Part shown: one piece after another, positions 1-35,665 of the stretch
Layout: the number at the start of each line of letters is the position of its first letter
Position numbering within the stretch: position 1 is the stretch's first letter
NCBI RefSeq assembly: GCF_009914755.1
Contig: NC_060944.1
DNA: 64,000 bases
Source: the human T2T-CHM13v2.0 reference genome, Homo sapiens
Direction: 5' to 3' (one strand)
The notes under the pieces: generated by a model
Database searches by the model: none
The model's input: only the letters and a program-made list of their open reading frames with translations
What the model was told of the DNA's origin: nothing
Program-made: the position numbers and the translations under genes

Positions 1-257
1 GATTAGTTCTTCTATAATAGTACATGTGGATAATAGCTGAGTCATAACTACTCTATCATTTATTCAGCTTTCACTGGTATTAAGTTCTTAGCTAACTGGT
101 TCATTTAATTTTAACAGCAACCCAGATACAGAGTTCTTTTCATTATCCTCATTTTATTAAAGAGAAAACTAATCCTCAAAGTGATTACATGACCTGCCTA
201 AGGTCAGGCAAATGATAAATCACAGGGGTCAAAATGCAGACCCAAGTCTGTTGCTTT

Positions 258-660
258 TGTCTTGGTTTGCTTCCCCCAGCAGCAGACCTTGAGACACGGA
301 TGTAATCACAAGTCACTTATTCAGAAAGTGATGCCAGGAAGCACCAATAGGTGACCAGGGCACAGGAAGGCAGCCAACATGGTGCATTGTCAAGCAAGTG
401 ACCAGAGTGGACAACAGGACCTCGATTCTACTAGGAAACTCTGGGTGCCAGGATAGATAACTCACTGTTATCCCTACCTGTGGGCTGAGGGAGCTGAAGT
501 ATTTACCCACAAATTCCCATTTGTGACTGATTGAAGGCTGCTCCCTAATCAGGCTATGTTCCCACAGCCAGAAAAAGAGCTCTTAGGCAAAGAATGGCCT
601 GTGTTTGCATGAAGAAGCTGGGCTGAGAGGGTATAGGCAGGATGTGCACAGCACTTGTTA
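258..660. mobile_element. LTR33-like (ERVL) solo LTR relic
   Basis: tgtcttggtttgcttcccccagcagcagaccttgagacacgga...gtgatgccaggaagcacca resembles the LTR33 consensus as recalled; ends approximate. Confidence 0.6.
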
Positions 661-1051
661 ACACTCTTAACCACTAGCTGAGTCCAGCTATTTGCTGCCA
701 GGCCATATGTAGGAGTCAGAAAGCTATGGTCCCTTGTGTAAAACTCAGTCCAGTGTGATGGCTAATGGAGCCCTATCCTGTTAGTAGCCTCAATTTCAAT
801 TCAGAATGCTGAAGTTTGGCCTCTGCATTCTTGCTCGCTGAGTATTAAAAAGATCTCTTTGCATTTTCTACTGTGGGCAGCTTCAGGGACATAGCCAACC
901 CTCAGGCTGCCCTTGTGCTATCCAGCCATTCTCCAGCCATTTCACGGCCTCAGCTACAGAGTCAGCTGCAACCAGGAACCAAAACATTTGTTCTCCATGG
1001 TGTTTCTGGTGCATTTTGAGGAAATGAGCAAATAATGAAGTTATTTTTCCC

Positions 1052-1226
1052 CAATATTTCTCAGGCTTTCATATGCACACGAGGTACTTGGGGGCTCTTG
1101 TTAAAATGCAGACTCTGAGTGAGCAGGTCTGGGTGGGGGCCTGAGATCCTGCATTCTGACAAGCTCCTGGGTGCTGCTGCTGCTACTGCTGCTGCTGCTG
1201 CCATGCAGAACCACACTCAGAGCAGC
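1052..1226. mobile_element. MER5A-type (hAT-Charlie) MITE with an internal (CTG)n stretch at ~1172-1201
   Basis: cttgttaaaatgcagactctgag..aggtctgggtgggggcctgagatcctgcattctgacaagctcc is the MER5A core. Confidence 0.75.
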
Positions 1227-1323
1227 GAGACTGCAGGCAACCTCGGTCCTCAAGTGAGTCACTAAGACTTTCTTAAGCTAGCCTCGGAGAAAAGCTGTTT
1301 CTTCAGCTTAGAGAGTTGTCATG

Positions 1324-1346
1324 AGGTCAGAGGTCCAGGCAGGTCA
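1324..1346 (+). promoter_or_regulatory. Putative composite nuclear-receptor element (DR1 overlapping DR4)
   Basis: AGGTCA-g-AGGTCC-aggc-AGGTCA. Motif match only. Confidence 0.35.
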
Positions 1347-3574
1347 AGAATTTGGAGTAGTTTAAAAGAAAAAGTGGAAAGGAAGAACCAAAATTCTGCC
1401 TACTAAAGACCAAGAGGAGGAAGAAAAAGAAGGCCAGTGTTTGCCAGAAAACTCTGAGCACTACCTAGTCTGCAGAACAAGGGCTCGAGAGGTTGTTTAA
1501 GTAAAAAGTTAAACCCGTAAACATGGCTTAGACTACTTTGCAAGCCATGATCTTTTATATTTCAATGTCCAACTTGGATTTCTAAACTAGGTTGCTTAAT
1601 AAAGCCAGCAATTGCCTCCCTATCTTTTAATGATAATTAAAAGGTATTGAGCCTTCATTGTAATGAGCCATTTACATTCACCAACTCATTTTAGCCTCAT
1701 AACTACAAAATGAATCACCTGCTACTCTTATCTCCTTTTTGACAGATGAAGAAGAAACATCTATAAAGTGGTGAAGTGACTTAGATACACAGAGCTAGTA
1801 AGAGTCAGAGCTGGTAAACTTAGGAAGTCTGACTCCAGAGTCTCCGTTTTTAAGCATGACACGCTACCTCCTTTCCTGGCCTTTTCTACCCTCTGTTTGC
1901 CCCTGGATGGCAGAGTGATGAATGTAATACTTGGTAGCCTCCATCTCCCGTACACCTCTCCCAGGGCCAAGGCAGTTTTGGTTAGGTAGATGCTGCCAGC
2001 ACCCACCTGACTGAGAATCCTAACCACTGGGCTCCTACACTGTTCCCTGAATCATGTCTCACCTTGGTGCATTGAGCCCCCTCATTTAGAGATCCCATCT
2101 CAGTACTTTGTCTCATTCCACAATCTCCTTCCTGAGGATCAGAATCCTATGCATTACATCAAGCCCAGAGCCCAAGCCTATTGGACACCCTGTCCCTGGT
2201 TTCTAGGTTCTGCCTGTCCTTCATCTCATGCCTACAGAGTCAAAAGTTGCTGCAATTACCCCCTCCCCCTGCAGGGTAAACAGGCCCTGTCCCTAGCACC
2301 TGCCTCACCCATAAGCCCAACCCAGGTCACCTGCTCTCAGCTGTCTTTTGCACTCTTCCAAGAAGATCCCTTTGCTTCTTTCAACTGCCTAAGGCTGTGC
2401 GACATCTATCCACATGTTTAAAGAGCCATCCAGAAAACCTGAGCCAAAGTCCTTGCACAATCTGCTTTATAAAACTTAAAGGCACCAGATTTTCAGTCAA
2501 AAATGCCCTCTGTGATCTCATGGAGAACAGACCCCATAAATGTGACTTTCAAAAAATAATTGTTTTGCTTGACAAAATTGGTCATTGTGATTTTGTTTCC
2601 GCCGAAAGGCTAAAAAAGGGGGACAGTCCTCCCCACCACCATCTTAAAAGTAAGAATAATTTCTTTGTCATCATTCATAGCTATTTAAATACCCGCTACT
2701 TACTATTTCACATTTGGGCTGAATCTTGAAGGATGAAACTGCATGTCCAAAGGAATAAGAGGAGTGGATATAGAGATGGGGGGTAAGGGACTAGGAACAG
2801 TAAAAAGTGACATTCATTCATCATCCATCCATCTTTTCATTTACAAAATATGAGTGCCGCTGATAGGCAGACACAAAAATATTTTTGCTGAGCAACCCAG
2901 AGAGTAGGGAACCAAAGGGTGTCTCTAAATGCAGATGAAAGTAGTTTTTGTGGGGTCATGGATGACAAAGAATAAACCACCAACCACACCAGGAGCATAT
3001 GGAAAGTGGAGGCTGAGTTTCAGCCCCAATCTCGCATTCCTGGATCCATAGGAGAGGGAGCAGGGGCACTGAGAAATGGGCAGTGAGTGAAGATCTCACA
3101 GTAGATCTAGGCCTTTGGAAAACCCACAGCTGCACAAGAGAAGAGAAAGGAGGAAGCCCTGATGTATGCAACAGTGTTGCCATTTGACAGTGAAATAAGA
3201 GGAAAGCTAAATGTCTGGGTTTTTTCTTCCGGAAGACACACTATGAACTATGCCCTACCTTCTTGGAAGATTCTGGGTCCCTTGCTGCCTTGTGCTTTCT
3301 TTTCACAAAACTGCATCTTCAGCTTTTCCAGATCCAGGAGGCTTGCTATTATTAGGGTTTTGAATGTAAGAACAGGCACAGGCTCAGGCTGGCTAAGAGC
3401 ATTTGTCACCTAAGCCTGATTGTAGCTTTGGACACATAGTTGGATTATTCCAAGTATTTAGTAATTCAGTAATCCAGTTAACTATGCTGGCAAAAGGCTA
3501 GGACTGTTTTGCACTAGGCACCAGAACATGGTCTCCACATTTTCATTTCTTATAGCTAGATATTTATAACCATC

Positions 3575-3934
3575 TGATAGGGTTTGGCTGTGTCCCCACC
3601 CAAATCTCATCTTGAATTGTAGCTCCCATAATTCCCATGTGTTGTGGGAGGGACCCAGTGGGAGATAATTGAATTATGGGGGCGGTTCCCCCTATACTGT
3701 TCTCGTGGTAGTGAATAAGTCTCACGAGATCTAATGGTGTTATAAAGGTTTTCCCCTTTCACTTGGCTCCCACTCTCTCGTCTGCCATCACGTAAGATGT
3801 GCCTTTCCCCTTCCGCCATGATTGTGAGGCTTCCCCAGCCACGTGGAGCTGTAAGTCCATTAAACCTCATTTTCTTTATAAATTACCCAGTCTCAGGTAT
3901 GTCTTTATCAGTAGCGTGAAAATGGACTAATACA
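3575..3934 (+). mobile_element. THE1 (MaLR) solo LTR
   Basis: Begins tgatagggtttggctgtgtccccacccaaatctcatcttgaattgtagctccc and ends ggactaataca (TG...CA). Near-matching 5-bp TSD ccatc/ccacc. Confidence 0.93.
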
Positions 3935-5381
3935 CCACCAAACCAGCTCAATCCTTTTAGTCCTCTACAAACCAAAAGAAACCTCCTTAGTGAGTCAAAT
4001 TTTGTGCTGAGTAACACCAAGGCATTATTAATGCTCAAATAGTGGTCATTTTAAGTCCGTGGTGTGTCATTGTGACTCAAGAACCACACTGTACCATAGC
4101 ACCGTGTGTGTGTGCCTAGATGGTGTCAAAATTATACTTTTATTTTAATTTCCGTATCTCAGAATTTTCTTATTAAATCAACAAGAACAGGTTTGTTTGG
4201 AGGGCTTTTGTTTGGGGAACTTTTTTTAACAAAACTTCTGGCATTGTTTTTTTCATCTGCAAAAAACAAAAACCTAACAGTCCTTCCCTACTTCTCAGAG
4301 GTGTCATGGGGATTAACATAATGCAAGTGTAAGTGCCTTAATAAGCATCATTATTTTAAAAAAAATCCCTTGCAGATGTAAGCATGCAGCTTGCTGAAAC
4401 GGTAGAATCCCATAAGGCCTACAGAACATAAATCACAATCCCTTAAATCTGCGGGTTTGTAACCCACGCACTGTAGCCTTGTAGAACGACAGAGAACCAG
4501 AGAGGAACATGCCAGGAGCTAAGGTGGGGCCAGAATCCAGGCCGAGCGCAGTCTTCCCTTTTCCTGTGTAGCTTCTGTGATTCTAAGAGGTCGGAGAGTT
4601 CATCCCCTGCAGGAGGAAAAAAAAAATGGCTAATTGATTTTCCTTCTGCTCAAGAATCCTGGTGTGTTGACCCTGGGGGGCTGTGAACTCCACCAAAAGC
4701 CACTCCCATGGCAATCTCCATTCAAGTCAAACACAACGAAGTCCCTGACTTGGAAAAGACTGGGATTCCTCTTGCTTCCCTCCGCAAAATGTATAAAACA
4801 CAGCGCGGCCACCGAAAGTCTTGTTTTCATGTCTTGCGTGTTATTTTTAAAAATGGAGAAAAGCTTCTCTTTAGGACTCGTGGTGTTCATTTTAAAATTC
4901 TGGATTAATCCATCGTGTTTATGTGACCTTTTTGGTGCAAAAACAACACAGTGGCCTCTGAATTTACATATTTTTTCCAAATCTTAGAATATTCATTTTA
5001 AAATGACTACTAATTTAGTTCACTTGGGTTTAGTTTTTATTCCAGTGTCGTCGGAGCCACATTTACCATCTATCATTTCTGCACAAAAACTTATAAATTC
5101 CAAGTCCCAAAGGGAAAACATTCTTAACAGGAATGCTTTTATTCACCATCTCTTTATTCCATTCAGAGGATTTGGTTATAGAAGATGAATAATAGTATAA
5201 AATATTATAGACATAATAAATAAAAGATTATAGGAAAGGAAGACTGGTTCTCCAAGTCGCAAGGTTTTCTTCAATATTTTAGGAACTCTGCCTAAAGCAA
5301 AAGTGAAAAGAAGATACCCAAATAGGTGAAAGTTTATTAACTGAAAATTTCAAAACAAGAAAGCCGCTTTTTGTTTCCTTG

Positions 5382-5396
5382 GCTGCCATCTAGTGG
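5382..5396 (-). promoter_or_regulatory. CTCF core motif (reverse orientation)
   Basis: Reverse complement reads CCACTAGATGGCAGC, a strong match to the CTCF core CCAsyAGrkGGCrs. Confidence 0.65.
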
Positions 5397-5966
5397 TTAA
5401 TAATGTACGCTAAAACACGCTCTTGGGAACGTTCAAAAAATATCTATCTGCTCGTTTTAAAACAAAACAAAAGATACCATCAATTTTTGAAAATATATTG
5501 CAGGTAGGAGATATTTATCTTTTCTAATAATTCTTATTTCTATCCACAAGTGGCATTTCCTTGCCTGTCTCCTAGTCTACGTTCTTTCTCCAGGAAAAGA
5601 ACATTGATGCAATTATTAGGTAATGATTGAGCCTAGTACTGTGTACTAAGACTAGGGCGAGAAGGATGAGGACGAGGTCCCTGACTTCATGGAAGAGAGA
5701 CATGAAAGCAAAAAACGAACATCGCGATGAGTGCTTAAAAAATAATAGACAAGTCGGGAGGGACACCAAGGAGGAAGCCCTTAACTCTGTTCTGTATTAT
5801 TGACGAGAAGAGTTTGGGTTAAGACTTCAGTGATGAGTGAGCATTCTCCAGACAGACAAGAGGAAAAAAAGCATGGAGGAGAATCAGGAGGCTGTGTGTT
5901 GGGGGATGTTGACAAACTATGTCAGAAAGACAGGCAGAGGCTATATCAGGAAGGGCCATTCGAGAT

Positions 5967-6366
5967 TGTATTAGGCAACTATTACTGGAACAAACCTCAG
6001 TTGCCAATAATAATCAGCAAGTATTTCTCACTGGAGGCTGCAGGTGAGCTGGGGTAACCGTGCCCTACGTGCCATTAATCCTCTCCCAGGGCCAACCTGA
6101 GACCAGGGGGCTAGCCTGGGCATTTTCTTTTCCTGTCACTAGCAGAAGCACAAGAGAAAGAGTAGAAATGCATAAGACCTCTTCAGATCTAGGTTTGGAA
6201 CTAGCAAACTGTCTCTTCTCTGTATTCCGTTAGCCAAAGCAAGTCACTTGGCTGAACCCAAGCCAAGGGGCAGGGAAACGTTCTCCACTGGTGAGAGGAA
6301 AGGACTGCAAAGTCACAGAAGAAGGAACTCAAATGAGGTGGAAAATGGGCCAGTAATGTAGTCTGC
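5967..6366 (-). mobile_element. MLT1-type (MaLR) LTR relic
   Basis: tattccgttagccaaagcaagtcacttggctgaacccaagccaaggggcaggg..ctgcaaagtcaca is a typical MLT1 segment. Confidence 0.6.
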
Positions 6367-6469
6367 AGCAAGTTCCATCTTGGAAATGGGTTTGAGGTTC
6401 CCATATTTGTCTAAAAAATGGTAAGAAAAACATTATGTCGATCAAAGTAGAGGTCTCGCTTTGCGTTAT

Positions 6470-6622
6470 GGGTTCCAGACCCCAGGGATACTGAGCATAC
6501 AAACGTCTGGGCCCTGACCCACACCAACTGATTCAAAATCTCTGAGTAGAAATTTCGAGAATCTGCGTTTTAACTGGTTACCCAGATGATTATTTCTATT
6601 CATCCTGAAGGTTGAGAACCAC
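6470..6622. mobile_element. MER5-type DNA transposon relic
   Basis: ctgggccctgacccacaccaactgattcaaaatctctg..tctgcgttttaac..ttgagaaccactg. Confidence 0.6.
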
Positions 6623-7822
6623 TGGAAGATTAATGAGAAAATAGAAAAAAAAGTCAAGGAGAAAACATAAAAGGAAAATGGGTTAAAAGAGGAAATAGTG
6701 CTCACAAAGAATACTAGAAATAGTGGGAAAAGGAATAAGAAAAACTAATGAAAAATGGTGTCCAGATGGCAGAGGGAAGAAGCTTAAAAGATAAGTGTGT
6801 GTTGAATTGTGTCAAATGCTGCCCACGGTCAAGTAGAACAAGAACTGAAGAAAGCTCTGTAAATTTGTCAATTAGGTAATATTATGTGAAAAGAACACAA
6901 TAGTGATGCCAGGATATCAGGAGGCCTGTTTTGCAGATAAAAAGAGAAAAAAACAAAGAAAAGGAAAGTGGCATGAAATAAAACAAAGATCCACCATTCT
7001 TCCAATTCTTCTTTCACGGGTCCTTACGATCTTGGTGAAATTGATTAATTCCACATTTAAACTGACAAAGCACCTAAAGAGTTAGTTTCTGGCTAGTGAT
7101 TAAAGAAAGGAAAGGAAAATGACCTTTTTTTTTTTTTTGTATCTGTTGGTTCTGATAACATGCCAGATATTATTGGTAGCATACAGGTAGCATACTATAT
7201 CTAATACCTAAGGCTTTATATATTTGAATAAAGAATTATTCCCTTAATTCTTCATTATTTCATTATATATTTCCTTTATTTTTTCATTATTTATGTGATG
7301 TTTTCTTAAGGACGTTAAAGGAAGTCAAATAGTGTATTAACACTACTGTTTGGATTTCCAAGAGATCTTGCTAGTATGCAGCATCTTATTCATGTCACAT
7401 GCTTTTTCTGAATTTCAGGACCCGATACCCAGTCTCTAGTGGGTGGATGCTGAGGACAGCTTGGAAGGTGCCATGCTAACAGGGGCCTCTCAGAGATGAG
7501 GTTCTGATATTGCACTATCAAATTCTGACTTGTCCTATCCCACTCCAAGTCATAGGAAGTCACCTTTATTTAAATGTGGTTTGCTTAAATGTACTTGATA
7601 ATTAAAAAGAAACACACACACACAAATATATTCACAACTCTATTTCAAAGAACTATCTTGTGGCCTCATTGAATGTGGCAGAGTTGCAGTGTGGAAAAGT
7701 TAATGCAGCCACTAATGCATTCACTCAGCTTTGGGGGAAGCCCTAAAACAGATCTGAGCACAGACTGGAGACTCAAAGACAAAGTTGAAGGGCTCTCCAT
7801 TGAGACCAAGAACTGCAGCTAA

Positions 7823-8203
<381 letters not shown>

Positions 8204-8669
8204 TAATGCCTGGTGAACATTGCATAACAGTCAAGCCAGCAGTTAAGTAGCATCTCCATCTTTTAAAATTAAGATTGGATTCTGGACCTAAGTATTTCAG
8301 TTTCATCTTCTCAAAAAAGGGAAAGCTTAGGAAATGCAAAAAATACACAGTACAAATATAATCAGTCTAAAAAATATGCCCATAAACCTCGGCCATTTTT
8401 TTCTTGCTAGGCTTAAATGTTAAAAACAAAATAATACACACACATGTACATATATACCAAACAGCTAGGTTGGTAGGCAAGTTCTTCTAAATGACCTCTC
8501 AACCCAAGCCCAGTCATCAACCTCTGATAGCAGATAAATGAATTGTCACTATTGATTATATTTGACATTAGAAGTTAACAAGATTATTCTGCCAGACATT
8601 CATCCTCCCTTGTTCTACATCACCATTTCATTTGAGAAGAAGGGACAATGGCTTTCACATAAGGCAGCA

Positions 8670-8920
8670 AAGGGTAGTGTTACAAATGTGGATTACAGTA
8701 CAGACTACATGGGTTCAAATCCTGATTCTGTTGCTTATGATAGACCTCAGGCAGTTTACTCAACTCCTCTGTGTCTCAGTTTCCTGAACCACAGAATGGA
8801 AATGCTACTAGTACTTCCTCCAGATGGTTCTTATGAGGATTAAATGAGGTATGACAAAAACTGAGCTTAGAAGGGTGCCTGGCACACAGATAGGGCTCAA
8901 TAACTGTGAGCTATTATTGT
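8670..8920 (+). mobile_element. MIR SINE (representative; other MIRs at ~50-250, 1650-1860, 13290-13400, 21870-22070, 22710-22945, 27320-27545, 30680-30850, 43720-43900, 51430-51680, 55780-56140)
   Basis: gggttcaaatcctgattctg..ctctgtgtctcagtttcct..gaggattaaatgag..gtgcctggcaca is the MIR core. Confidence 0.8.
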
Positions 8921-9460
8921 GTTCAGAGATCCCCAAATATTTTGAAAAAGAGGCTTAATTGTCCCACTGCTTTAAAGTTTTGAAACTTCTAAGACTGGGG
9001 GATGTCAGAAATCAAGGCTCAAAGTGTAGGAAGTGAGATCCGTGCAAACTCAGCTAAACTCTAACATGCTCATGTCTACACGATTGATGAGTGGTATTAA
9101 TTATGTCTCTCAGAGTTCATTTCAGCCTGCAACAAAGCTTAGACCTAAGAGATGCATTTAACGTAGAATTTCAATCTCTCTAAGGCAGGCGGGGAGAGCC
9201 TTTAAGAGCCTAGGAAACCATGCCCCACTGGTGAGAGTTTACTCTGCCTACTTGTACAAATCCAACTATTTGTCTTGTCAGAGTTAAGTTCTACTGAAAA
9301 ATAGACCTCTGTCTCTCTCTCCCTAAGGGTTCTCTGATTCTGAATTTGTTCTCTGAAAGTTTAGGTCTGAGTGTGAACATAAAACATCTGGAAAAAGAAA
9401 GTGGAAAAGGAAAAGTAAACCCTTTCATGACTCAATTTTTTTTTTTCGTATTATTTAAAG

Positions 9461-9566
9461 ACACACAAAGCCTAGAGAAGCTCCTGAGAGATGCTGTCAT
9501 CTATGGCCAGCCTCGAACCCGCAGAGCTTGGAAAAAGATTCTCATCCTGGTGGAGGGTGTCTACAG
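9461..9566 (+). CDS. SPTLC3: SPTLC3 internal coding exon (exon 7, 106 nt; phase 1 to 2)
   Basis: Encodes (N)[34 protein letters not shown](S), matching SPTLC2/LCB2-family SPT subunit SPTLC3. Poly-T tract plus ttatttaaAG acceptor; donor AG|GTATGT. Confidence 0.97.
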
Positions 9567-10674
9567 GTATGTAAATAACAGGACACATTTTACGACTCGG
9601 AGGCCTGCAGCAAGCTGACCAGTGCGGAAAGGCTCACCTTTCCTAGCTAAACAGAGAAATGACTTAGAATTGGTTATATGACACAGGGACCTGAGACAGA
9701 GCCACCAATGGGAGCTGTCAGACGTGGGTTATCTGTCTTTTTGATGACTCTATATATGGCACAGCAGCTTGGAGGCTGGCCGGCTTGTGAAGGCTTCCTC
9801 AGAAATATCCTCTCAAGGCATTGCTAACTTGAGTTGATCTTTCCACTACCTTTGACTGCCCCAGAGTTTCAAAGGCGTTTCGCAGCTGGGTTATTCAAGA
9901 TCAAAACACTCCTTGCCTTTATGACTGGTAGAAATTGTTGATGGGTGGCCCAGATGCCCCTACCTGGACAGCACGCCCAACCCCCAGCTGCTTGCTGAAC
10001 TTTGTTAGTGATTGCCATCAATACAAAAGATCTGCCTGTTTTCCCCAAGGTAGGAGTAACCTGGGGTGCAATTCTTGTTCCAGAGCCAGCGGGTAGGAAT
10101 GGGCTGATGTCTAGTCCATAAGCCAAGGAGACATTATTTCAGAGTGCCCAATCCTGAATCAATTCTCAAACAATCCTGACGTTAGGCAAATTGAGGGGGA
10201 TATCCCCTATAATGATAGAAAAGTGAAAAATATTAAAAGGAAGGAAGTGAAGGCTGTTCAACTTTAAGACAAGGAGGAGTGTGGCTACAAAGGAGACTTG
10301 AGGATAGACATAGGATTTCTTTCAGCCCGCTAATCTCATTAGTCCCTGAGTGCACATTTTTTCTGCTACATGAGTGGATAATGAGCAGCAGCAGAAGTGT
10401 GCCTTTATTCCTTTTAAGAAAAAAAAAGTGAATTCTCCCAACTCTAAAATAATAATAATAAGAAGCTTGGTTTCATTTTATTTTTAACATTTTTAACTCC
10501 AGTACTTCTGCCCCCATGGTTAGGGTTCTGGATGTTCCCAGTCCTACTGTGGGAAATGCAAAGTTTGCATTTCCAGTTTCTACCAGCTCACTTTCTGCAT
10601 CACCTACCATTACCTCCTCCAGCCAGCCCAGAGAGTATGTACTGTTGATGAAGTCTTTGGGAGCACTCTAGACA

Positions 10675-10881
10675 TAGTAGTTCTCCAGGGTGAGCTTGTC
10701 CTTGCCCCAGCCTAGGCACATTTGGCGATTTTCAGTCATTATAACTGCAGTAGTGTGTGACTGGCATATGGTGGACAGAGGCCAGGGATGCTGCCAAGCA
10801 TCCTACGATGCATGGGACAGCCCCTACAACACAGAGTTATCTAGCTCAAAATGTCGATAGTGCTAAGGCTGAGAAAACCTG
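10675..10881. mobile_element. MER20 (hAT-Charlie) element
   Basis: ctggcatatggtggacagaggccagggatgctgccaagcatcctacgatgcatgggacagcccc..aaaatgtcgatagtgctaaggctgagaaaacctg. Confidence 0.85.
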
Positions 10882-11399
10882 TTCTGGTATAACTGACAAC
10901 TCGTAGGCCTTAACTTGCAATTTTAAGAAATAATCTCATATTGACTCTGGGCTGTCATAACCTCAAGCATGGATCTTTTTCCCTGTGTGATTTGTGCCTG
11001 CTGCCAGCCTGGGAGGGGAGCAAATAGCCCTTATCTAAACACCTGTCATTCAGGCCTAGATTCGTGGGAACACAGATCAGCTGAGAGAGAGCAGACTGGG
11101 CATCTCCTTTAAGCAGAGTAAACAAAACCCAACTGCAAATAAATAGAACTTGGCTCCAGTAAATGAAAGTTAGGTCTTAACCACTTTGATCATGGCTGAA
11201 ATTAAGTAGACAACTGGCATTTTACTGGCAAATATTCCCATCAGCTACACAGAGAAACAACTCCAGCAGCAGGGCTTCTTAGTGGCCATGCCAGGCGCCT
11301 GCATCCCACCACTTCAGAAGGACAAGGGACCCAGGTGTGGACTTCCAGCTCCAAGCCAGAGTGGTACCAAACCACAATTTTGGTTGCACTAGCAATAGT

Positions 11400-11938
11400 G
11401 ACTGCTCAGTTACCTATTGCCATGTAACAAACCACCCAAAGCATAATGGCTTACACAGCAATGATTTATTATTTCCCACGCTACCGTGGGTTGTGTGGAC
11501 CAACTGGGCAGTTCTTCTACTCCACATGGCATTGGTTGGAGGCCTCTCATGGAGGCCACTTCATTCAGCTGACACTTTGTCTGGGGCTGGAACATCCAAA
11601 ATTACCCCACTTGCACATCTGGCCCTCGGTACTGGCTCTCACCTGGAGTGCCATGCTCTCTTCCACACAGCTTTCTCTATAGATAGTCTCTTCTCATTCT
11701 GTAGTCTAGCCAGAACTCCCTTACAACGTGGTGCTGGCTTCCAACAGAGCAAAAGCAAAGGCTGCCGGCACTGAGACATTATCACTTCTGCCCTGACCCA
11801 TTGGCTCAAGTACATCATGAGGCCAGCCCCGATTCAAAAGAAGGTGAAATAGACCCTACCCCCTGATGGAGGATCCACTTGTATGTATAAGGATGGGAAG
11901 CTTTGCAGGCAGCCATCTTTGGAAGCCATCCACCACAG
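11400..11938 (-). mobile_element. MLT1-type (MaLR) LTR
   Basis: Starts with the antisense MLT1 signature tattgccatgtaacaaaccacccaaagcataatggctta and ends gcagccatctttggaagccatccaccaca. Confidence 0.75.
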
Positions 11939-12249
11939 TGGCTCAATCAACCTGGTGATGACACAGAGTGAAGTCCCCACTTTCCAAGAATTTTCCTTCA
12001 CAAGAAAGTTCCTTTCATTTCACCCACACAGGAATGTTGACTTTAAATGAGACCAAGACCTAAAAGGCCACATTCACAGATAGGTAACAGGGCATCTCTT
12101 TGACAAGCCTCAATCGCTCTTGGGGGCTTCAATTTCCTCATCTGTAAAATAAAGATAGCCTAGAGTTGAGTTCTACAGCCTTAAACCTCAAAGGAAAAGC
12201 CTTTATACAGGTGTTCTAATTTGCAACTATCACCAGATATTTCCCATAA

Positions 12250-12596
<347 letters not shown>

Positions 12597-15500
12597 TCAA
12601 TAGTTCACAAATGCACTCCTACTTTTCGGAGGTATATTAGGAATGCATATCTTGTTGGTACCTACACAAAGCCTCCTTTGAATTTTAACTTCCAGATTTT
12701 TTCTCTTGCTTATGGTCTGCCACCATGGGTAAAGCACCCCCACATACATCACCACAGAGCCCACATACATCAATTTTTTCATAACCCCCAAAGAGAGCAG
12801 TCAGCCAAATCAGAAAGTTTCAGGGAGATATCAAGATAGAAAAGGCTAGATACCCAGTCTGAGAAGTCAGACAACTCCACAAAACTAATAATAATAATGT
12901 CACCATTCATAGGTATTATTATTCATATGTAGAATATAGAGGAGTCAGGATTTGGAGGCAGGCCTGGGACCTAGGTTCAAATCCTGGCATCACCACCTAC
13001 ATCTGTGTGGCCTCCATAGGGTACTTTGGTAATAATAAATATTCAATGAGGTCATATAAGCTAGTGTTGGCAGAGGCCCAGCCCATAGAAAGCTCACAAC
13101 CAAGAGTGGCTGTCTTTATTGTCACATTGATTTTCAGTCTAAGAAGTTGCAACTCAGAAAACAATAAGTCATCTATGTTGCAAGGCTGTTTGCTCTTCTT
13201 CCATCCAGAAAGTGGCTGTTAGAGAAAGAAACTCACACTGACCATGTGTCTACTCCTTGCTAAACATTTCCCATGTGCAGCCTTGAGTAAGCCTCCAAGT
13301 ATTCCTGAAGTTATTGTGAATATGAAGAAATTGAGGCTCCGAGGCTTAGATTACTTGCCCCAGGACAGATAACCGAGATGAGGCAGAGCGGGGATTAAAA
13401 CCAGGTGGCCCTGATGGGACAAAGGCTCAATGTAAATAGAAGAGTCAGCCCATGTGTCCACATCCAATGAAGTAAACATGGAAAATGCAAGATCACCCAT
13501 TTGACCTTTACCATTAACCTATCTAGGCCTCAGTTTCTTCATCTGTAACACAGGGGCATTGAAACGTAAAACCCAAAGTTTCATGAATGCATGATTTGGG
13601 GTTTAAAACTAAAATAGTATTATTTCAGTGTTCTGATCTGTATGTTTTCATTAAGTATCATTTTAAAATCACATTTTCTAATTTCATGTCTCTGAGAAGT
13701 CTAGATCCCTTATCAACTCATAGTGGTTGAGAATCTCAAAATTATTCAAAAATATCCTTGAGGTGTGGTGTCCCAAATAACCTGGGACATAAACTAGCAT
13801 AGCTGGAGCACTAACTTTCAAAATAAAATTAATCAAGGAATAATAGTCAGCTCTTCTAAAACAAATACATATATAAACATATGCACATGTGCTGTAGCCT
13901 CAGAATACCATTTACTCTAAGAATGTAAGCTATTCTCCTATGCTCAAAATAATGTAAATTTAAGGATTGAGAACTTCAGTGGTAAACTGTCACCTGTATC
14001 TCTATGGTTTAAACAAATAAAGAAAAGAATAAGAAAACATTTGTTACTTTACTTTTAATTGACCTTAACTTTCTTTTTCTCTCTTTCCACCTTGCTTTCT
14101 TGTTTTGAGTTACACTTTGGGCCCACCAAGGAGATTTTTCCACCATGTGAGTTAGCTAGCCGGTGGTTTAATTCTCCATCTGCCAGTGGCTAATATGGTT
14201 TATATGTGGAGGGAAAAGTGGTGAGAGGGAGATTTCAAAAAGGAGGCTTTTCACTTAGCTAAGACATTATGTAATAGAAAAGATATAAAGGAATTATTCA
14301 CTGGCTTGCTGGTTTAAGAATAATTCAAGTCCCTGCACAGAGCTTCAAATTAACTCGTGGAATTATCTTTACCTACAGTCGTGTTTTAGTTGTTTTTCTT
14401 CTATTGAAGTCAAAAGAAAAACACAACCTTCCATTCAGGAAGAAAGAATAAATTGCTGTTCTTGTTTTCTGTATCATTTTTGGCACTGTTTTTTGACAGC
14501 AATTCATGGGAATAACATAGATAGCCTTTTTATGCATGCGCTAGACTCAATATCCCACTATGGGAAAAGGCTCAATTCAAATTTGATCACATTGTGAAAA
14601 TGAAAACTTAGTGTGGGTGAATATAACTCTATAAAAGCTGAATTCTCCCTAGGACTCTGTGTGTGCCCTGCATTAACTCCAAAAGTCAGCAGTATTGTAG
14701 AGTCATTAATCTTAGAGGAAGAAATATAAACCAGGTGGGCAGGCTCCTAACATCAGCTAGACCAGCCCCATGGAAGGATGGTTAATTAGCTGCCCGCAGT
14801 GTCTACAAACACTGTGGGCCATTAACTTTGGCTTCTGTCAAATTCAGTTCCAGAACAAAAAAATGGCTATGTGTGGCATGTCAGGTTTTTTGGCATATTT
14901 GTGTTACCAACTTATAACATTTTAAAGAGAAGAAAATTCTAGATTTCTGAGGACCTGCAGCCATTTATTATGTATGACATCCAGCATGACACCCACATGC
15001 CTCGCTCCTATAAGATTCAACACAGAACATTGTCAAGGGCTCCCACTTTCCCAAGTTAGGACTCGTTGCAACCATTTCCTCCTAAGCTCCTCCTCCTGAG
15101 GGCCGTAACGATTCACTAAATGCCCATCATGGATCAGGTAGTTTACAAGCATGATTTCAAGTGATTGTTATAAAGACCCTGTGAAGAGGGGCCCATCATC
15201 CTGTTTGTATTGCATATGAGGAAACTGAAGCAGAGAACATCACGCAAATTGCCCAAGCTCACAGTTAGTAAGCTTAGGCAGCCAGATGGCCAGACTGTCT
15301 TCCCCTCAATGGAAACAATTTTAACAAGCAATTAATTTAAGAACATGTTGGAATTAACTCACAAACTTACATAAGAAAAGACAACTGTATTTGGCCTTTA
15401 TTTCATTAAAATCTGAACTCGGCCATCCAAAACTACCTCGTGGAACACACAAATGCTGCACCCAGTGATCATGATACTCTCTCCAAACCAACACCCGTTG

Positions 15501-15900
15501 GTCTGGGTGACTGTGCACACAGCCAGCTGGACTGTTTTGACTGAATCGACCCAACACTTAAGCTTATTTTTTAATACATTAAATTTAATCTAATAAATAA
15601 TTAGGGGAAAAAGGAGACGTTCAACTCTGTTTGATTCAATGAATTAGCTCTTGAACTAACCTAAACGGTTGTTTGAATTGTTTGACAAGTTCCTTTGTGT
15701 GGTGAGTGTGTCTGTGTGTTTTCGTACAACTTGCCTGTCAATGCAGTCAAAACTGTGTGCAACATAGACACAGCTTGCAAAGTGTTCTGAGAACTGATTA
15801 CTGTCAGATTTTTTTAATCCATTGAGTCCCAGAGGTGCCATGTAAATAGAAATTTTAATTTTATTTATTCATAGACTACATTTTTTTCCCTTTGTGCCGG

Positions 15901-16045
15901 AGGATGTACCAAAGCTTCCCAGGAGGATCTTTGTTAATTTAGAGCATTTCTGTCTCTGCCCTAGCATGGAAGGTTCTATCGTGTATCTGTCCCAGATCAC
16001 AGGACTTGAAGTACTTTTGCAACTTACAATATCATGAAAAATAAA
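15901..16045 (+). pseudogene. Degenerate local duplicate of the exon-8 acceptor and first ~38 exonic nt (pseudo-exon / possible alternative last exon)
   Basis: agcttcccaggagga..gagcatttct..ctgccctAG|catggaaggttctatcgtgtatctgtcccagatcacag versus the true ..ctgccctAG|catggaaggttccatcgtgcatctgccccagatcatag. In-frame TGA at 16035-16037; AATAAA at 16040-16045. Confidence 0.85.
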
Positions 16046-16077
16046 ACAGTTAGGGCTAAAACAAAAGAGTTCATCTA

Positions 16078-16255
16078 CAGCAGTGGCCCTCTATGTGTGG
16101 TCCGCAACCATTGGTGGCAGCATCTCCTGGGAGCTTGGCAAAAATGCACGTTCTCAGCCCACCCAATACCGACTGAATCAGAAACTCTGGGGTAGGAGTC
16201 TAGCAATCTGTGTTTTAACAAATCCTTCAGAGGATTCTGATGTTCACTCAACTTT
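16078..16255. mobile_element. MER5A-type element
   Basis: cagcagtggccctc..gcagcatctcctgggagcttg..actgaatcagaaactctggggtagg..aatctgtgttttaacaa. Confidence 0.8.
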
Positions 16256-16853
16256 CTGTTCCTCTGTCTAAAGGAACAGAAAGAGGAGACACCTCGGTCT
16301 TTGACTTGAAGTGGGTATTGAACAAGAGGTCTCAAAGACTTCCTATTTTACTTTAATTAACACTATGATGTCTTAAATAAAGTTCTGTGTCTTTTTAATT
16401 CCCTCTTTTAATCTATGGCAATTCAAGCACCAAATTTAAGTCAAACAGACCTGGCCAAAAAGGCAATGCCAGGCTGATAAAGGGAATGACTATAGGGTAA
16501 TTTAATCAATTCTAGCAGAATATCTAGAATCCAGAATGGTCAGTCTAGTTACACCAGTTGGCTTTACAAATAAATTGGATCAATAATGCAGTGAGCTGAT
16601 TGTTTGCTTGAGAATTAGCTGAAACCAAAAGCACTTAAATCCATTGAATGTAAATTATTTTATCCAAGTAGCATAGAAATGCCCAAGTGGCCTTACAAGA
16701 TTGAAAGGGTTGTCTCAGCCAAATAAAACATGCCTTCAGAACAAAGGAATGGCGTGTGTCAGGGAAGACTGTCTAGGATGTATTGATGGGGAAACTGACA
16801 GAGCTTCCCAGGAGGGTATTTGTTAGTTATGAGCATTTCTCCTTCTGCCCTAG

Positions 16854-17073
16854 CATGGAAGGTTCCATCGTGCATCTGCCCCAGATCATAGCTCTAAAGA
16901 AGAAATACAAGGCTTACCTCTACATAGATGAAGCTCACAGTATTGGGGCCGTGGGCCCAACCGGCCGGGGTGTCACGGAGTTCTTTGGACTAGACCCTCA
17001 TGAAGTTGATGTGCTCATGGGCACATTCACCAAAAGTTTTGGAGCTTCAGGAGGTTACATAGCTGGAAGGAAG
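16854..17073 (+). CDS. SPTLC3: SPTLC3 coding exon (exon 8, 220 nt; phase 2 to 0) with the PLP-binding motif
   Basis: Encodes (S)[77 protein letters not shown] and GTFTKSFG are alpha-oxoamine synthase motifs; the Schiff-base Lys codon is at 17032-17034. Acceptor ttctgccctAG|C, donor AAG|GTAAGA. Confidence 0.98.
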
Positions 17074-19028
17074 GTAAGAGAGGGCCTGCTTGTGTCTGTT
17101 TAAAACCTGAGCGCCCTGGGGATGCCGTGTGTAGGGCTTCTCTGAATTTCATGAAAGCTTCAATTCAGTTCACCACACCTCAGCTGATCACTCCAGCCTG
17201 GCTACAGTGGGTTCACAGCCAGATAAGGCCCAGAATATCGAGGAGCTCTCCCTCGAATAGTGAAGAGGAGCATGTGATGAGTGATCACACTATAATGAAA
17301 TGGCAACACTGGCCGTGTACATAAGATGCAAAGTACCAGGCAGAGGAATAATTAACTCTGTTAAGTAGTATCTAGGACATGGTTTAGAATGAATATCCAT
17401 CTGGTAGACAAATAATGGGGGGCCATATTTAACACACAGAGAGAATAATGTATACCAAGCCAGAAGTGATAAGGGATGTTCTGAAAACTATAAGCATTAA
17501 AAAACACAAAGAAGATAATAGCAACAGTAGGCAATGTTAGTTATTAGGGAGGCTGACCCTATGCTACAAGTTGTGGGTTTTAAGAGTTTTAATCAAAACG
17601 GTGGCAGGAATGTACTTTTAAGAAATATTCTCTGCAAAAAAAATTCTTTCCATAATGTTGCATACACCATAGGTCAAATCCTGCCATTCTCCAATATCTT
17701 ATCAATATGCCTTAAAAATTCTGATCTGCTGGGATTAGACTGTTAAGTGAGTGTTGGCCCTGTCATTCTAGTGCCAATATCACCAAGAGGTTTGTGAAAA
17801 AAAAAAAAAAAAAAAAAAAACAATAAATATTTGAGAGAAATTTAAAAGGAGGGAAAGGAAAGGGACAAAGAAAATCCAATATTCAAACCTGGGTTTGAGA
17901 GATAAAGGAGCCAGTTATCTGAACAATGAGAGGATAGCCTTGTCCAAATTCTGACACCTATCTCAGACAAACCTACACCTGTCCCAAAGAGCAGGTGTGA
18001 CAGTGATGTTGGCTCAGCCTAGGATGCCACACCAGGCCCAAAACCAGTGCATGCAAGTGGTATCAACAAAAATCCCCACTTTCTTACCTATTGTGATGAA
18101 CAGGAACAAGAGTTCAGACTTCTGGTAAACCAGTTAGACAAACCAAGAAGTGCAGCAGAAAACAGTCCTCTCATTGAAAGCTCATGATTTAAAACAACAG
18201 ATTTAATTCTGGCCACTGGCCCTGCCATGAAATGCACAGATGCTTAAAATGTTCAGAGTTTTAAGTGGCCTTTACCCTTCAATAAGCACTGCTTTCTTTC
18301 GGGCTCAAAGCATTGTTTTTCATCCCCTCTTCACTGGCCTGTGGGAATCAGCTGGGTAATGCTAAAACCATTGGGAAAGCCCAGGATCTTACAAAATTCA
18401 GCTAAATCTGGTGAAAGGTTAAATGTTTCCTCCCTAGACTGTCGAAGCAGTAGGAGCAGAGGGTCTCAAATTTAGGAGCTCCCTGATCCTGGCTACATTG
18501 CTCTGTGAGCTTGTGGTTTTGTGATTACTTTAGCAGCAGTTCTGAACTACAAAATTTTTAACGAAGCATAACTCTACTTCCTGAACCAAAGGCACCTGAA
18601 TAAACCGAAGCAAGCCAATTCTTGAAATGTTGTCAAATTTGGTGGATGTCACATTTTTCCCCCTAGAGTAGCTTCATTTGATACCCACTTTAAACAAAGG
18701 CTCGCGACTAGCAGAAGTAAACACCAGTTCACCATGATTCTCTCTCATGCTCTCCATTCTGATGTCAGCTAGAGTATTTTTAAGATGTAGGCGTTCTTGT
18801 CCACACAATTTCTATTCATTTGGCATAGATACTGAGCAATTGTGAAAATTACCATTATTTACATTAATCGGGATGCAGAAAAAGTATGTACATCTGTTCA
18901 TTTTCTTATCTCTTAAAATGCTCATTTTATGCATATTTGGATACAGAGGGTCGCATTGTTCATTCCCTCTCCTCTCCCTCCTTTTTCCTCCCCACCTTTC
19001 TCTGTCTTCTCTTCCCTTCATGTTACAC

Positions 19029-32000: not shown

Positions 32001-32802
32001 GAATTCTTCTCGCTATCCCTCTTACCTCAGCAAATAAACAGCTCTGATCTCTTTTACATCTCTGTGCTTGATTCTTTCCCTTTCCATCTTCTAAAGACAC
32101 CAGCCTCTTTTCACAAACTTGCACTTGTTGGTTTCTCTCATCCTAAAAAGACTTTCCTTGCCCCTTCTTTTTCCAACAGCCACCGAGCCTCAACCCATCC
32201 ATTGCAGCAGATCTCAAAAGAGTGAGCTATTCCGCTGGCTTCCCATCTACCCTTCTCATGAAGTTTCCAGCCCCTGCAGCCTGTCCCCCGCCTGTCCTCT
32301 GCCTCCTTGCTCCATGGATCCTGCTCCCTCTAAAGCCACTCCTGTAAGCACACTCCCCTGCTTCTCTGCCAGATTAAACTTGATCTCTCTGCATCATTCT
32401 CTCTCTTTGAAAACAGCCTTCAAAGACTGTCTTCGTTGTAGAGATGCTCTTCTCTTCTGGTTTTTCTCTTATTTTTCTATTTGTTCTTCCTCTCTTTTCT
32501 GCCAGGCCTCTTTCCCTATCACTATTTGCCCTAATCCCACACTCTGTTCTTTTTATAGTTCCCGCTGCACAAGTACCCTCACCTGTTTCCTTTCCAAAAC
32601 AGCTTGCGGACCCTCTACCCCCAGAGATTTCTGCATGACATGCTTGCTGCATTCTAACAAGCCCCAGGTGCTGCTGCTAGTCCAGGGACCAGCCTTTGAG
32701 AATCACTGCTGCATAATGACCCTGTAGTCACTCTTTCCCTCCCATCAGACATTAATGGCTTGTGGATTTCTTGTAGATAGAAACCATTAAATCTCCATAA
32801 CA

Positions 32803-33464: not shown

Positions 33465-35665
33465 CAGGTGCAGCTACCATATAACAATCCACACAGTTCC
33501 TGACACATCATAGGCCTTCAATACATACTTTCCAGTTGAATTGGAAAGAAATGTGTTAAGTCTCAGTTATGTCGTGATGCAGATGCTCACAAAATATCTG
33601 TTTAGGGCCATCTTTTCATCAAAAGAATTGTATCTCCGAATACTTAACATCAGCAATCTGAGTAAATAAACTTGCTCATCAAGGACAACTTCTTTCTTAT
33701 AATTCTTGTCTGCAGGCATGTCTAATTTTACTCATTATGCCTATCTGCTTATGATAGAGTCACTGATGTTGGGGAAAGTTCCCCCGCATGTCCCCAGTCA
33801 TCATTTCATATTTCATGATGATGGGAGTGCCAGACAGAAGGGAGAGAGTGATTACAAGGTCATCATACAGCAGTGGTTCTCAAAGAGTGGTCCCTGGACC
33901 ACCAGCAGCAATGTTACCTGGGGCTTGTTAGAACTGCAACAAAGCATTTCTGAATCAGCTGTTTTAACCATTCCTCCAGGAGATTCTGGTGCAGGCTCAA
34001 ATTTGATAACCATGTTTCTACGTAACAGAAAAGAAACAGATCTGTGCAGTGGGAGAAGTAAAGTGAACAGAGGATGGAATTCTGGCAGATGCAAACAAAG
34101 GTAAAGGACCTAGCAAAAAAAAAGAAAAAAGGAGGAAGAAGAGCAGGCAGAAGAATAAGAAAAAGCCCGAAAGAGAAAAGCATGAAATGTGTTTGGATCC
34201 ATTTCTTTAAATCTGTGTTTAAACCAAAACATCAACGCTGCCCTCTCAGTTACTACTAGCACCTTGCCTGTCCTTCAGTCCCCATGACCACTTTGGCATC
34301 AGGAATAGGAAAGGGAGTTTTGCTTATGAAATGCATGTGCCTCACAACAGTCACTCCCTAAGCCTGTGCTTTCACATAACTTTTTGAAGTATGTAAAGTC
34401 ATTAAGAGTTCATGGTCACAACATTCATTTTATTGTTTGATTTGATAGTAGACATCTGACAGAGATACTGCCATTTCTCCAATAACTGCTATCCCTTAGG
34501 ATAAATAGGGTAGCATTTATAATAATTATTTAAATTGTCTCTTCAGTGTATCTTCAATGGGTAGGATCAATTTGATGAAAGGAAATCCACAATGGGCAAC
34601 ACTGCTAGGTGTTGATTTATCATAGGATGACTCATGACAAAATATTCCATATTCCTAACTCAGAAAGAATGGTCTCTCCTATAATTATGTGGGATCTACT
34701 TAACTCATGCTATAACAGTCACCCTCCATTTGACTGCTGATCTTCCTCCCATGATCGTTACAATTTTGATGACATGGTGTTGAAATGAAATTGGCACTTT
34801 TTTGAAAAAAGATGATCTGCTTAACCTGATGCATCTAGTGAATATTAGATATTAAGATTCTTGTTATATTTTCAATTTCATGTCAGCTGTTTCATGAAAC
34901 AGCAACTATATATCTTACCAAGCACTTACTTTGCCTACTGGCTACTGTGTAGTTTTTAGATCTACGGGCCCACTTATCTGAAGATCTAAACGTTTAAATA
35001 TTTTAGAATTTTTGTGTAACATTAAGTCTTTCAAAATACAACACTTAACCAGAGACAGGAAAGTTGGAACGATTCTAGCTATATGAACAGGCCAGTACTT
35101 AAATTTGGATTACTCCATTGACGAGTTCATTTCTAATTTCACCAAAATGGCTATAAGAAAAATCATAATGTCTCTGACTTAATCAATTCTCTCTCAGCTA
35201 TTACCTCAGTGCCAGGCTGGTGGGATAATCACCAACTTTCTGAATCACAAAACCACATTTTGTATCACATGGATGAAAACGTGATTCATTTATAATCAAG
35301 TGACCAGTAATGTCGGAAAGGGAAACAGTAATGGAAATTTACTTACAAGAGAAAAGGTATACAGAATTTCAATTACTAATGTGTAATATCTGATTTCAGT
35401 AGAATACACCTGCATCATTGTTAATAACACCTAAACTTAAATGATAAATTTAGGAAAAATGAAATTCTCTATTTTTCTTCAAAGTCACACATGTCCCTCT
35501 CTGCCCTTAAACTGAAGGAGTTTCTGGGTGGTAAGGCAGGGGAGGGGACAATGTGTCTGGAAGAAAAGGAAGGAGAAAACTAAAGATAAAATTAAGATGG
35601 AATAATGACTTGTGTTCTTCCTGGAAAACAATAGCTATTTAAGATCCTCAGAAATAGAGGAATTT

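What the first reader, a model, noticed from the sequence alone, without database searches (positions are those of the whole stretch)
15901..16101. Duplicated exon-8 acceptor 889 nt upstream that reads as a ready-made truncating last exon
Seen: ~100 nt copying the exon-8 3' splice region, from aggatgta..agcttcccaggagg through ctgccctAG. It includes 38 exonic nt with only 4 mismatches, all transitions. Splicing exon 7 to 15965 keeps frame and gives SMEGSIVYLSQITGLEVLLQLTIS-stop (TGA 16035-16037). AATAAA follows immediately (16040-16045), with a GU-rich tatgtgtggt ~45 nt downstream inside the MER5A. Inference: either a decoy acceptor met first by the spliceosome, or an intronic-polyadenylation isoform. 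Such an isoform would lack DEAH and the PLP lysine and so be catalytically dead, but it would keep the N-terminal regions and could act as a dominant-negative or off-switch SPT subunit. As a last exon it would escape EJC-dependent NMD.
Basis: partly seen in the sequence, partly recalled or inferred. Interest (0 to 1): 0.8.

Follow-up and report, generated by a model that had tools for sequence, protein, structure and literature searches.

The report
Partial copy of SPTLC3 exon-8 acceptor
A roughly 100-base copy of the start of SPTLC3 exon 8 and the intron just before it sits 889 bases upstream in the same intron; it looks like a usable splice acceptor followed by a stop and a poly(A) signal, but nothing available here shows it is used, so it is most likely an old duplication relic.

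Summary
Window 15910-16002 is an ungapped 93-nt direct copy (80/93, 86%) of 16799-16891, the last 55 nt of SPTLC3 intron 7 plus the first 38 nt of exon 8. It lies 889 nt upstream, with a probable 8-nt extension at 15901-15908. These are the only two such places in the whole T2T genome. The flanks share no homology, so it is not a tandem duplication.

- 4 exonic mismatches, all transitions
- in-frame reading from exon 7 to TGA 16035-16037
- AATAAA at 16040
- a GU-rich patch inside an old interspersed repeat

The acceptor is as good as the real one on paper.

Nothing supports use or function. RefSeq has no exon there, and five SPTLC3 literature searches found nothing. AATAAA occurs 11 times in this intron. 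No donor-like site follows. The copy changed residues conserved in SPTLC2 and SPTLC3. The truncated protein would keep under half of the aminotransferase fold.

Best reading: a neutral relic of a short patch duplication tens of millions of years old, at most a rarely used cryptic acceptor. RNA data are needed to settle use. Interest is low.

The parts
15901..15908 (+). 8-nt probable upstream extension of the copy (recurs at 16776-16783). A 14-nt length difference separates it from the main repeat.
   Evidence: Read directly. Not recovered by gapped anchored alignment.
15910..16002 (+). The copy: 55 nt of intron-7 3' end plus 38 nt of exon-8 5' end, 86% identical to the source.
   Evidence: Only two places in the genome match.
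15933..15937 (+). Branch-point-like TTAAT (A at -28). It arises from the A/G difference at 15937; the real acceptor has no YTNAY match in its 55 nt.
15945..15964 (+). Polypyrimidine tract and AG (15963-15964) of the pseudo-acceptor. It differs from the real acceptor only at -13 to -11.
15965..16037 (+). Potential exon reading in phase with exon 7: one completed codon plus 23 codons, then TGA 16035-16037 (P0001).
15982..15985 (+). UGUA upstream of the hexamer, created by the T/C difference at 15984.
16040..16045 (+). AATAAA hexamer, one of 11 on this strand in intron 7.
16092..16101 (+). GU-rich patch 47-56 nt after the hexamer.
16074..16268 (.). Old interspersed repeat. MER5A is a recalled name, not tested.
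   Evidence: at least 778 first-look candidates, 40 scored, 75-86% identity.
16799..16891 (+). The source: the real intron-7/exon-8 boundary (acceptor AG 16852-16853, exon 8 from 16854).
   Evidence: and the annotation table.
9461..9566 (+). Exon 7, ending in phase 2, with donor CAG|GTATGT (8 of 9 to consensus).

Best explanation
This is a neutral relic of a short, non-tandem patch duplication. About 100 nt spanning the intron-7/exon-8 boundary of SPTLC3 was copied once into unique intronic DNA about 0.8 kb upstream. The likely route is templated repair synthesis at a break; that mechanism is inferred, not shown. The event dates to roughly tens of millions of years ago, and the copy has since drifted without coding constraint.

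The copy happens to keep an intact 3' splice signal. It has no donor site to define an exon. The stop codon and AATAAA behind it are what AT-rich intron sequence supplies by chance. In the cell it is expected to be ignored, or used only as a rare cryptic acceptor or terminal exon with no role for its product.
For: **Shown: origin and uniqueness**
- One 93-nt block at 86% identity, with crisp ends.
- Flank alignments score no better than shuffles. Upstream scored 12 against a shuffle mean of 11.5 and maximum of 17. Downstream scored 11 against 11.0 and 14 (50 shuffles each).
- Anchored extension was matched by 184 of 500 shuffles downstream and 382 of 500 upstream.
- Only two genomic places match.
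- Both flanking stretches are unique DNA: 15500-15909 and 16003-16073.

**Shown: drift**
- JC distance is 0.155.
- 3 of the 4 exonic differences change the amino acid.
- Two of these hit residues (P, I) shared by SPTLC3 exon 8 and the SPTLC2 paralogue exon. The copy is therefore the derived, unconstrained side.

**Shown: no sign of use**
- No donor-like site of at least 6/9 lies within 345 nt. The best are 6/9 at 16311 and 7/9 at 16497, both out of frame.
- AATAAA occurs 11 times in the 7,287-nt intron and 66 times on this strand of the window.
- A longest identical run of 22 nt is expected in 30% of random placements of 13 mismatches.
- There is no special RNA structure: z = +0.62, and 141 of 200 shuffles fold at least as well.
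- RefSeq has no exon here (table supplied with the finding).
- No literature was found.
- The SPTLC2 acceptor has no such copy.
Against: - The pseudo-acceptor is on paper as strong as the real one. It has a single Y-to-R change at -13 and a better branch-point match.
- It carries 38 nt of genuine exon, which may hold enhancers.
- On my crude measures its hexamer ranks high among 62 intronic AATAAA in the window. It is 2nd for the best GU-rich 12-mer, 5th for GT/TG dinucleotides and 6th or better for upstream UGUA. It is only 43rd for T content.
- The 22 positions around the AG are all identical, which has a prior probability of 0.023 if that block is named in advance. It was named after the fact.
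- It is the only low-copy duplicate in the window that touches any of the 6 annotated exons.
- None of these points shows use.
Confidence: 0.7

Rival explanations
1. It is a low-level alternative last exon (the skipped-terminal-exon type of intronic polyadenylation). Exon 7 is spliced to 15965 and the RNA is cleaved some 15-35 nt after AATAAA 16040. This gives a short, NMD-insensitive mRNA that lowers full-length SPTLC3 output. The effect is at RNA level; the truncated protein has no role of its own.
For: - Intact acceptor with a branch-like TTAAT.
- In-frame stop 3 nt before AATAAA.
- UGUA 55 nt upstream and a GU-rich patch downstream, ranking 2nd to 6th of 62 hexamers on these measures.
- No donor-like site nearby that could recruit U1 to suppress the site (the U1 effect is established knowledge).
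Against: - RefSeq has no such exon among 7 transcripts.
- SPTLC3 is absent from the held supplement of the IpA atlas PMC5928244. This is weak evidence, because that atlas centres on immune cells.
- The exon-7 donor is strong, 8/9.
- T content downstream of the hexamer is below the median.
- There are 10 other AATAAA in the same intron.
Confidence: 0.17
2. It is a decoy acceptor. U2AF and U2 assemble on the copy, which is transcribed first. Without a partner donor this is unproductive, so it delays or tunes removal of intron 7 (the decoy-exon or intron-retention type of control).
For: Acceptor quality equals that of the real site, and it lies 889 nt earlier in the transcript.
Against: - Human introns hold many unused strong pseudo-acceptors (established knowledge).
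- No conservation or retention data are available.
- No structure links the two sites.
- The SPTLC2 paralogue has no equivalent.
Confidence: 0.08
3. One reading: the terminal exon yields a stable truncated SPTLC3 that still joins the SPT complex and acts as a dominant-negative or off-switch subunit.
For: Only the open frame, and escape from NMD in principle.
Against: - The product would end before Pfam PF00155 position 159 of 361. It would keep less than half of the PLP-dependent fold, so misfolding and degradation are expected; that step is inference.
- The tail has drifted at conserved residues.
- There is no annotation or literature.
Confidence: 0.03
4. It is a poison cassette, or a long alternative-acceptor form of exon 8 (15965-17073), that brings in a premature stop and sends the mRNA to NMD.
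For: The same acceptor and stop apply. The real exon-8 donor, 8/9, could close a 1,109-nt exon.
Against: - No donor-like site of at least 6/9 lies within 345 nt.
- A 1.1-kb internal exon is far beyond the usual range for exon definition (established knowledge).
Confidence: 0.02

Closest known systems
Intronic remnants of exon duplication (tandem exon duplications, some giving mutually exclusive exons). PMC9013439 and PMC8373072, seen only as search listing and start of abstract.
   Same: An exon-derived sequence with its acceptor sits in the flanking intron of the same gene, in the same orientation.
   Different: - Only 38 of the 220 exonic nt were copied.
- There is no donor.
- The flanks are not duplicated, so it is not tandem.
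- It cannot substitute for exon 8.
Intronic polyadenylation isoforms with a skipped terminal exon. PMC5928244: search listing, start of abstract, and one supplement searched.
   Same: The layout is an acceptor, a short open frame, a stop and an AAUAAA inside an intron. That layout would truncate the coding region.
   Different: No 3'-end or junction evidence exists for this site. SPTLC3 does not occur in the held supplement of that atlas.
Pseudo-exons, cryptic acceptors and decoy splice sites (general splicing knowledge, recalled).
   Same: A consensus-quality 3' splice signal lies deep in an intron and is not annotated as used.
   Different: Its origin is traceable to the neighbouring real acceptor rather than to chance or a transposon.

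Membership tests
Alternative last exon / intronic polyadenylation isoform | 3' splice signal (branch point, pyrimidine tract, AG) | tested here: met
   In -20..+3 it differs from the real acceptor at 3 positions, with one Y-to-R change. TTAAT lies with its A at -28. This is sequence level only.
Alternative last exon / intronic polyadenylation isoform | Poly(A) signal with auxiliary elements | tested here: inconclusive
   AATAAA at 16040, one upstream UGUA and a GU-rich patch 47-56 nt downstream. T content ranks 43rd of 62. The measures are my own crude ones.
Alternative last exon / intronic polyadenylation isoform | Transcripts that end there (junction and 3'-end reads) | not testable with these tools
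   No RNA data were available. RefSeq has no exon here, the literature searches were empty, and the IpA atlas supplement has no SPTLC3.
Tandem exon duplication / mutually exclusive exon | Whole exon copied with both splice sites, same length and phase | tested here: not met
   38 of 220 exonic nt copied. Homology ends at 16002. No donor.
Tandem duplication of an 889-nt unit | Flanks between and beside the copies are homologous | tested here: not met
   The interspersed repeat at 16074-16268 is not duplicated within 14000-19000.
Recursive splice site | AG|GT junction that regenerates a donor | tested here: not met
   The acceptor is followed by CA, not GT.
Poison cassette exon | Donor within the usual exon length | tested here: not met
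   No site of at least 6/9 within 345 nt.
Decoy exon / decoy splice site | Factor binding without productive splicing, and an effect on intron removal | not testable with these tools
   Needs CLIP or minigene data.
Transposon-derived sequence | Many copies in the genome | tested here: not met
   The 93-nt copy has 2 places in the genome. The neighbouring 16074-16268 stretch does meet this feature.

The most novel reading that the evidence does not exclude
The duplicated acceptor, with the stop and AAUAAA behind it, is a primate-acquired, regulated alternative last exon of SPTLC3. It switches the gene off at RNA level in some tissues, or yields a truncated N-terminal SPTLC3 fragment that competes for SPTLC1, ssSPT or ORMDL partners. 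That would be a built-in brake on the SPTLC3-type long-chain-base spectrum.
Probability: 0.03. Interest if true: 0.55.

Novelty: new member of a known kind. Interest (0 to 1): 0.2.

Why it matters
If used, the site would give a natural off-switch for SPTLC3, the SPT subunit that shapes the spectrum of sphingoid bases in liver, skin and placenta. It would also be a place where deep-intronic variants could change SPTLC3 output.

As it stands it is mainly a clean example of a short patch duplication seeding a ready-made pseudo-acceptor next to a real exon. It is useful as a caution for splice predictors and for read mappers. Reads over the first 38 nt of exon 8 differ from the copy at only 4 bases.

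Tried and rejected
**Rejected on evidence**
- Tandem duplication of an 889-nt unit: no flank homology.
- Longer, more diverged homology beyond 16002: I thought I saw one by eye, but the anchored alignment was matched by 184 of 500 shuffles.
- Transposon origin of the copy: only 2 genomic places match.
- Recursive splicing and a poison cassette: no GT after the AG and no nearby donor.
- RNA structure hiding or presenting the acceptor: z = +0.62.
- Selection on the acceptor, judged from the 22-nt identical block: the longest-run P is 0.30.
- An equivalent decoy at the SPTLC2 paralogue: none found. The only other match is the exonic part, at an intronless, frameshifted SPTLC2-like copy on C6.

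**Searches that could not answer the question**
I did not resend it, because clustering at 90% identity would probably hide such an isoform anyway.
- One literature search was badly specified: min_terms 3 of 6 without forcing the gene name. None of its 25 listed papers held SPTLC3.
- PMC10394034 mentions SPTLC3 only for 3'UTR lengthening, not an intronic site (passages).
- PMC3189193, PMC11895392 and PMC12101918 mention SPTLC3 without any isoform information (passages).
- PMC2785320 is not held.
- The paper reader closed, so the supplements of PMC9013439 (unannotated exon duplications) could not be checked for SPTLC3. They may bear on whether this copy is already listed.
- Earlier findings of the scan were not open.
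- No splice-site or poly(A) scoring model (MaxEnt, SpliceAI, APARENT), no repeat library, no other primate genome and no RNA data were available.

Full report
**1. The observation**

- A local alignment and the repeat finder both give one ungapped 93-nt direct repeat, 15910-16002 versus 16799-16891. It is 80/93 identical (86%), with start-to-start spacing 889.
- The repeat covers the last 55 nt of SPTLC3 intron 7 and the first 38 nt of exon 8.
- An 8-mer at 15901-15908 recurs at 16776-16783. The copy has 1 nt where the source has 15 nt between this 8-mer and the repeat. This is probably a real extension with a 14-nt indel. I put chance at about 1%, and a gapped anchored alignment did not recover it.
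- A match this good is not chance. The binomial expectation over all pairs of positions in the window is about 3e-23.
- There are 13 mismatches, 9 transitions and 4 transversions: 9 of 55 intronic and 4 of 38 exonic. All four exonic ones are transitions. With only four sites this is unremarkable.

**2. What surrounds it**

Homology stops sharply on both sides.
- Free local alignment of the flanks scores like shuffles. Upstream scored 12 against a shuffle mean of 11.5 and maximum of 17. Downstream scored 11 against 11.0 and 14 (50 shuffles each).
- Extension anchored at the repeat ends is matched by 184 of 500 shuffles downstream and 382 of 500 upstream.
- An 889-nt tandem duplication is therefore excluded. 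It would also have duplicated the neighbouring interspersed repeat, and no such second copy appears in 14000-19000.
- In the whole T2T genome the 181-nt query around the copy matches only itself and the real exon-8 boundary (2 candidates, both scored).
- The upstream 410 nt are unique (1 match), and so are the 71 nt between the copy and the repeat element.
- From about 16074 to 16268 lies an old interspersed repeat. It gave at least 778 first-look candidates; 40 were scored, and the 39 other places are 75-86% identical.
- A self-comparison of the window gave 194 non-self alignments. Only 2 pairs are low-copy within the window. This one is the only alignment touching any of the 6 annotated exon intervals.
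- The other low-copy pair belongs to a low-copy interspersed family (12 genomic matches).

**3. The reading as an exon**

- Exon 7 is read in frame 2 and ends in phase 2. Joined to 15965 it completes a serine codon, then reads 23 codons to TGA 16035-16037 (protein P0001).
- AATAAA follows at 16040-16045.
- The acceptor window -20..+3 differs from the real one at three adjacent positions (-13 to -11), and only one is a pyrimidine-to-purine change. Any matrix over that window must therefore score the two sites nearly alike.
- The copy has a YTNAY match (TTAAT, A at -28) that the real 55 nt lack. It is produced by the A/G difference at 15937.
- Downstream there is no donor-like site of at least 6/9 until 16311 (6/9), then 16497 (7/9). 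Both would give exon lengths that are not a multiple of three. The real donors of exons 7 and 8 score 8/9.
- The copy could therefore be defined only as a terminal exon, through the poly(A) signal.

**4. How special is the poly(A) context?**

- AATAAA occurs 11 times on this strand in the 7,287-nt intron (42% G+C) and 66 times in the window. One within 100 nt of any given point has a chance of roughly 14% (my arithmetic).
- I compared 62 AATAAA sites of the window on simple measures of my own. The 16040 site ranks:
  - 2nd for the best GU-rich 12-mer downstream
  - 5th for GT/TG dinucleotides
  - 6th or better for upstream UGUA, with one, created by the T/C difference at 15984
  - 43rd for downstream T content
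  - 24th for upstream T content
- It is a plausible but not outstanding site.
- RNA folding of 15880-16110 shows nothing unusual: z = +0.62, and 141 of 200 shuffles fold at least as well.

**5. Constraint and age**

- The SPTLC2 paralogue on C14 has its intron at the same position.
- Of the four exonic differences, three change the residue (H/Y, P/S, I/T).
- P and I are shared by SPTLC3 exon 8 and SPTLC2, so the copy is the side that changed. It has drifted without coding constraint.
- The 22-nt identical block across the AG is the longest run, but a run this long arises in 30% of random placements of 13 mismatches. The probability for that particular block, if named in advance, is 0.023.
- The JC distance is 0.155 overall, 0.185 intronic and 0.113 exonic.
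- With recalled neutral rates of about 1-2.2e-9 per site per year per lineage, this gives roughly 35-80 million years. The error is wide because it rests on 13 differences. This is an inference, and no other primate genome was available.
- The SPTLC2 acceptor region has no such copy. Its only other match is the exonic part, at an intronless, frameshifted SPTLC2-like copy on C6.

**6. What a product would be**

- The real exon 8 holds the DEAH and TFTK motifs. It matches Pfam PF00155 (aminotransferase class I/II) positions 159-234 of 361, E = 1.6e-11.
- That the lysine of the TFTK motif binds PLP is family knowledge, not tested here.
- A product ending in the pseudo-exon would stop before about position 159 of 361. 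It would keep less than half of the fold, which argues against a stably folded dominant-negative subunit (inference).
- The pseudo-exon peptide and the exon-7 peptide match no Pfam family.

**7. Evidence on use**

None could be obtained.
- The RefSeq table supplied with the finding lists no exon here among 7 SPTLC3 transcripts.
- SPTLC3 was searched together with each of five terms:
  - 'intronic polyadenylation': 1 paper
  - 'truncated isoform': 0 papers
  - 'alternative splicing': 42 papers, 25 listed
  - 'alternative polyadenylation': 1 paper
  - 'transcript variant': 5 papers
- None of these turned up any report of such an isoform.
- The one hit on polyadenylation, PMC10394034, concerns 3'UTR lengthening (passages).
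- Three further papers read at the SPTLC3 passages were irrelevant.
- The single held supplement of the intronic-poly(A) atlas PMC5928244 has no SPTLC3. This is weak evidence, since that atlas centres on immune cells.
- The paper reader then closed, so the supplements of PMC9013439 could not be checked.
- I therefore cannot say that the copy is unlisted in catalogues of exon duplications or poly(A) sites.

**8. Verdict**

The most likely account (about 0.7) is a neutral relic of a short, non-tandem patch duplication. Templated repair synthesis is my inferred mechanism. The relic kept its acceptor by chance and sits in front of chance stop and poly(A) signals.

The rivals are:
- a low-level alternative last exon (about 0.17)
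- a kinetic decoy (about 0.08)
- a functional truncated protein (about 0.03)
- an NMD-directed form (about 0.02)

The kind of feature is known: intronic exon-duplication remnants, pseudo-acceptors, and candidate intronic poly(A) exons. This particular one appears not to be described in the literature I could search. Interest is low unless RNA data show use.

Noticed in passing
window 32640-32740 and 33839-33947: Inverted pair of about 105 nt at 83% identity, 1.2 kb apart. It is the only other low-copy pair in the window. The arm also matches about 10 other genomic places at 80-89%. It is probably the two ends of an old low-copy transposon, or two copies of a small element.
   Followed up: partly
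L005 (G000:C6:169104241-169107447), about 1195-1988 minus strand: An intronless, frameshifted SPTLC2-like copy. Exon-7-like and exon-8-like peptides lie in two different frames of one continuous stretch, and it is 84% identical in DNA to the SPTLC2 exon. It looks like a processed pseudogene and lies outside the window.
   Followed up: partly
L006 (G000:C14:57800341-57803553), 1408-2070 minus strand: A 220-aa open frame, 41% identical to SPTLC3 exon 8, that runs on beyond the exon-8-like part without an intron. From recalled similarity it looks like a retrocopy of another alpha-oxoamine synthase, GCAT-like. It was not tested and lies outside the window.
   Followed up: no
window 15901-16101, minus strand: According to the supplied table the TASP1 gene span (4109..538349, minus) overlaps this part of SPTLC3. 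The finding therefore also lies inside an intron of the longest TASP1 transcripts on the other strand. Nothing on that strand stood out.
   Followed up: no
window 15984 and 15937: Two of the 13 differences between copy and source happen to create signal-like motifs in the copy: UGUA upstream of the hexamer, and a TTAAT branch-point match. With 13 changes this may be chance, and it cannot be judged without other species.
   Followed up: partly
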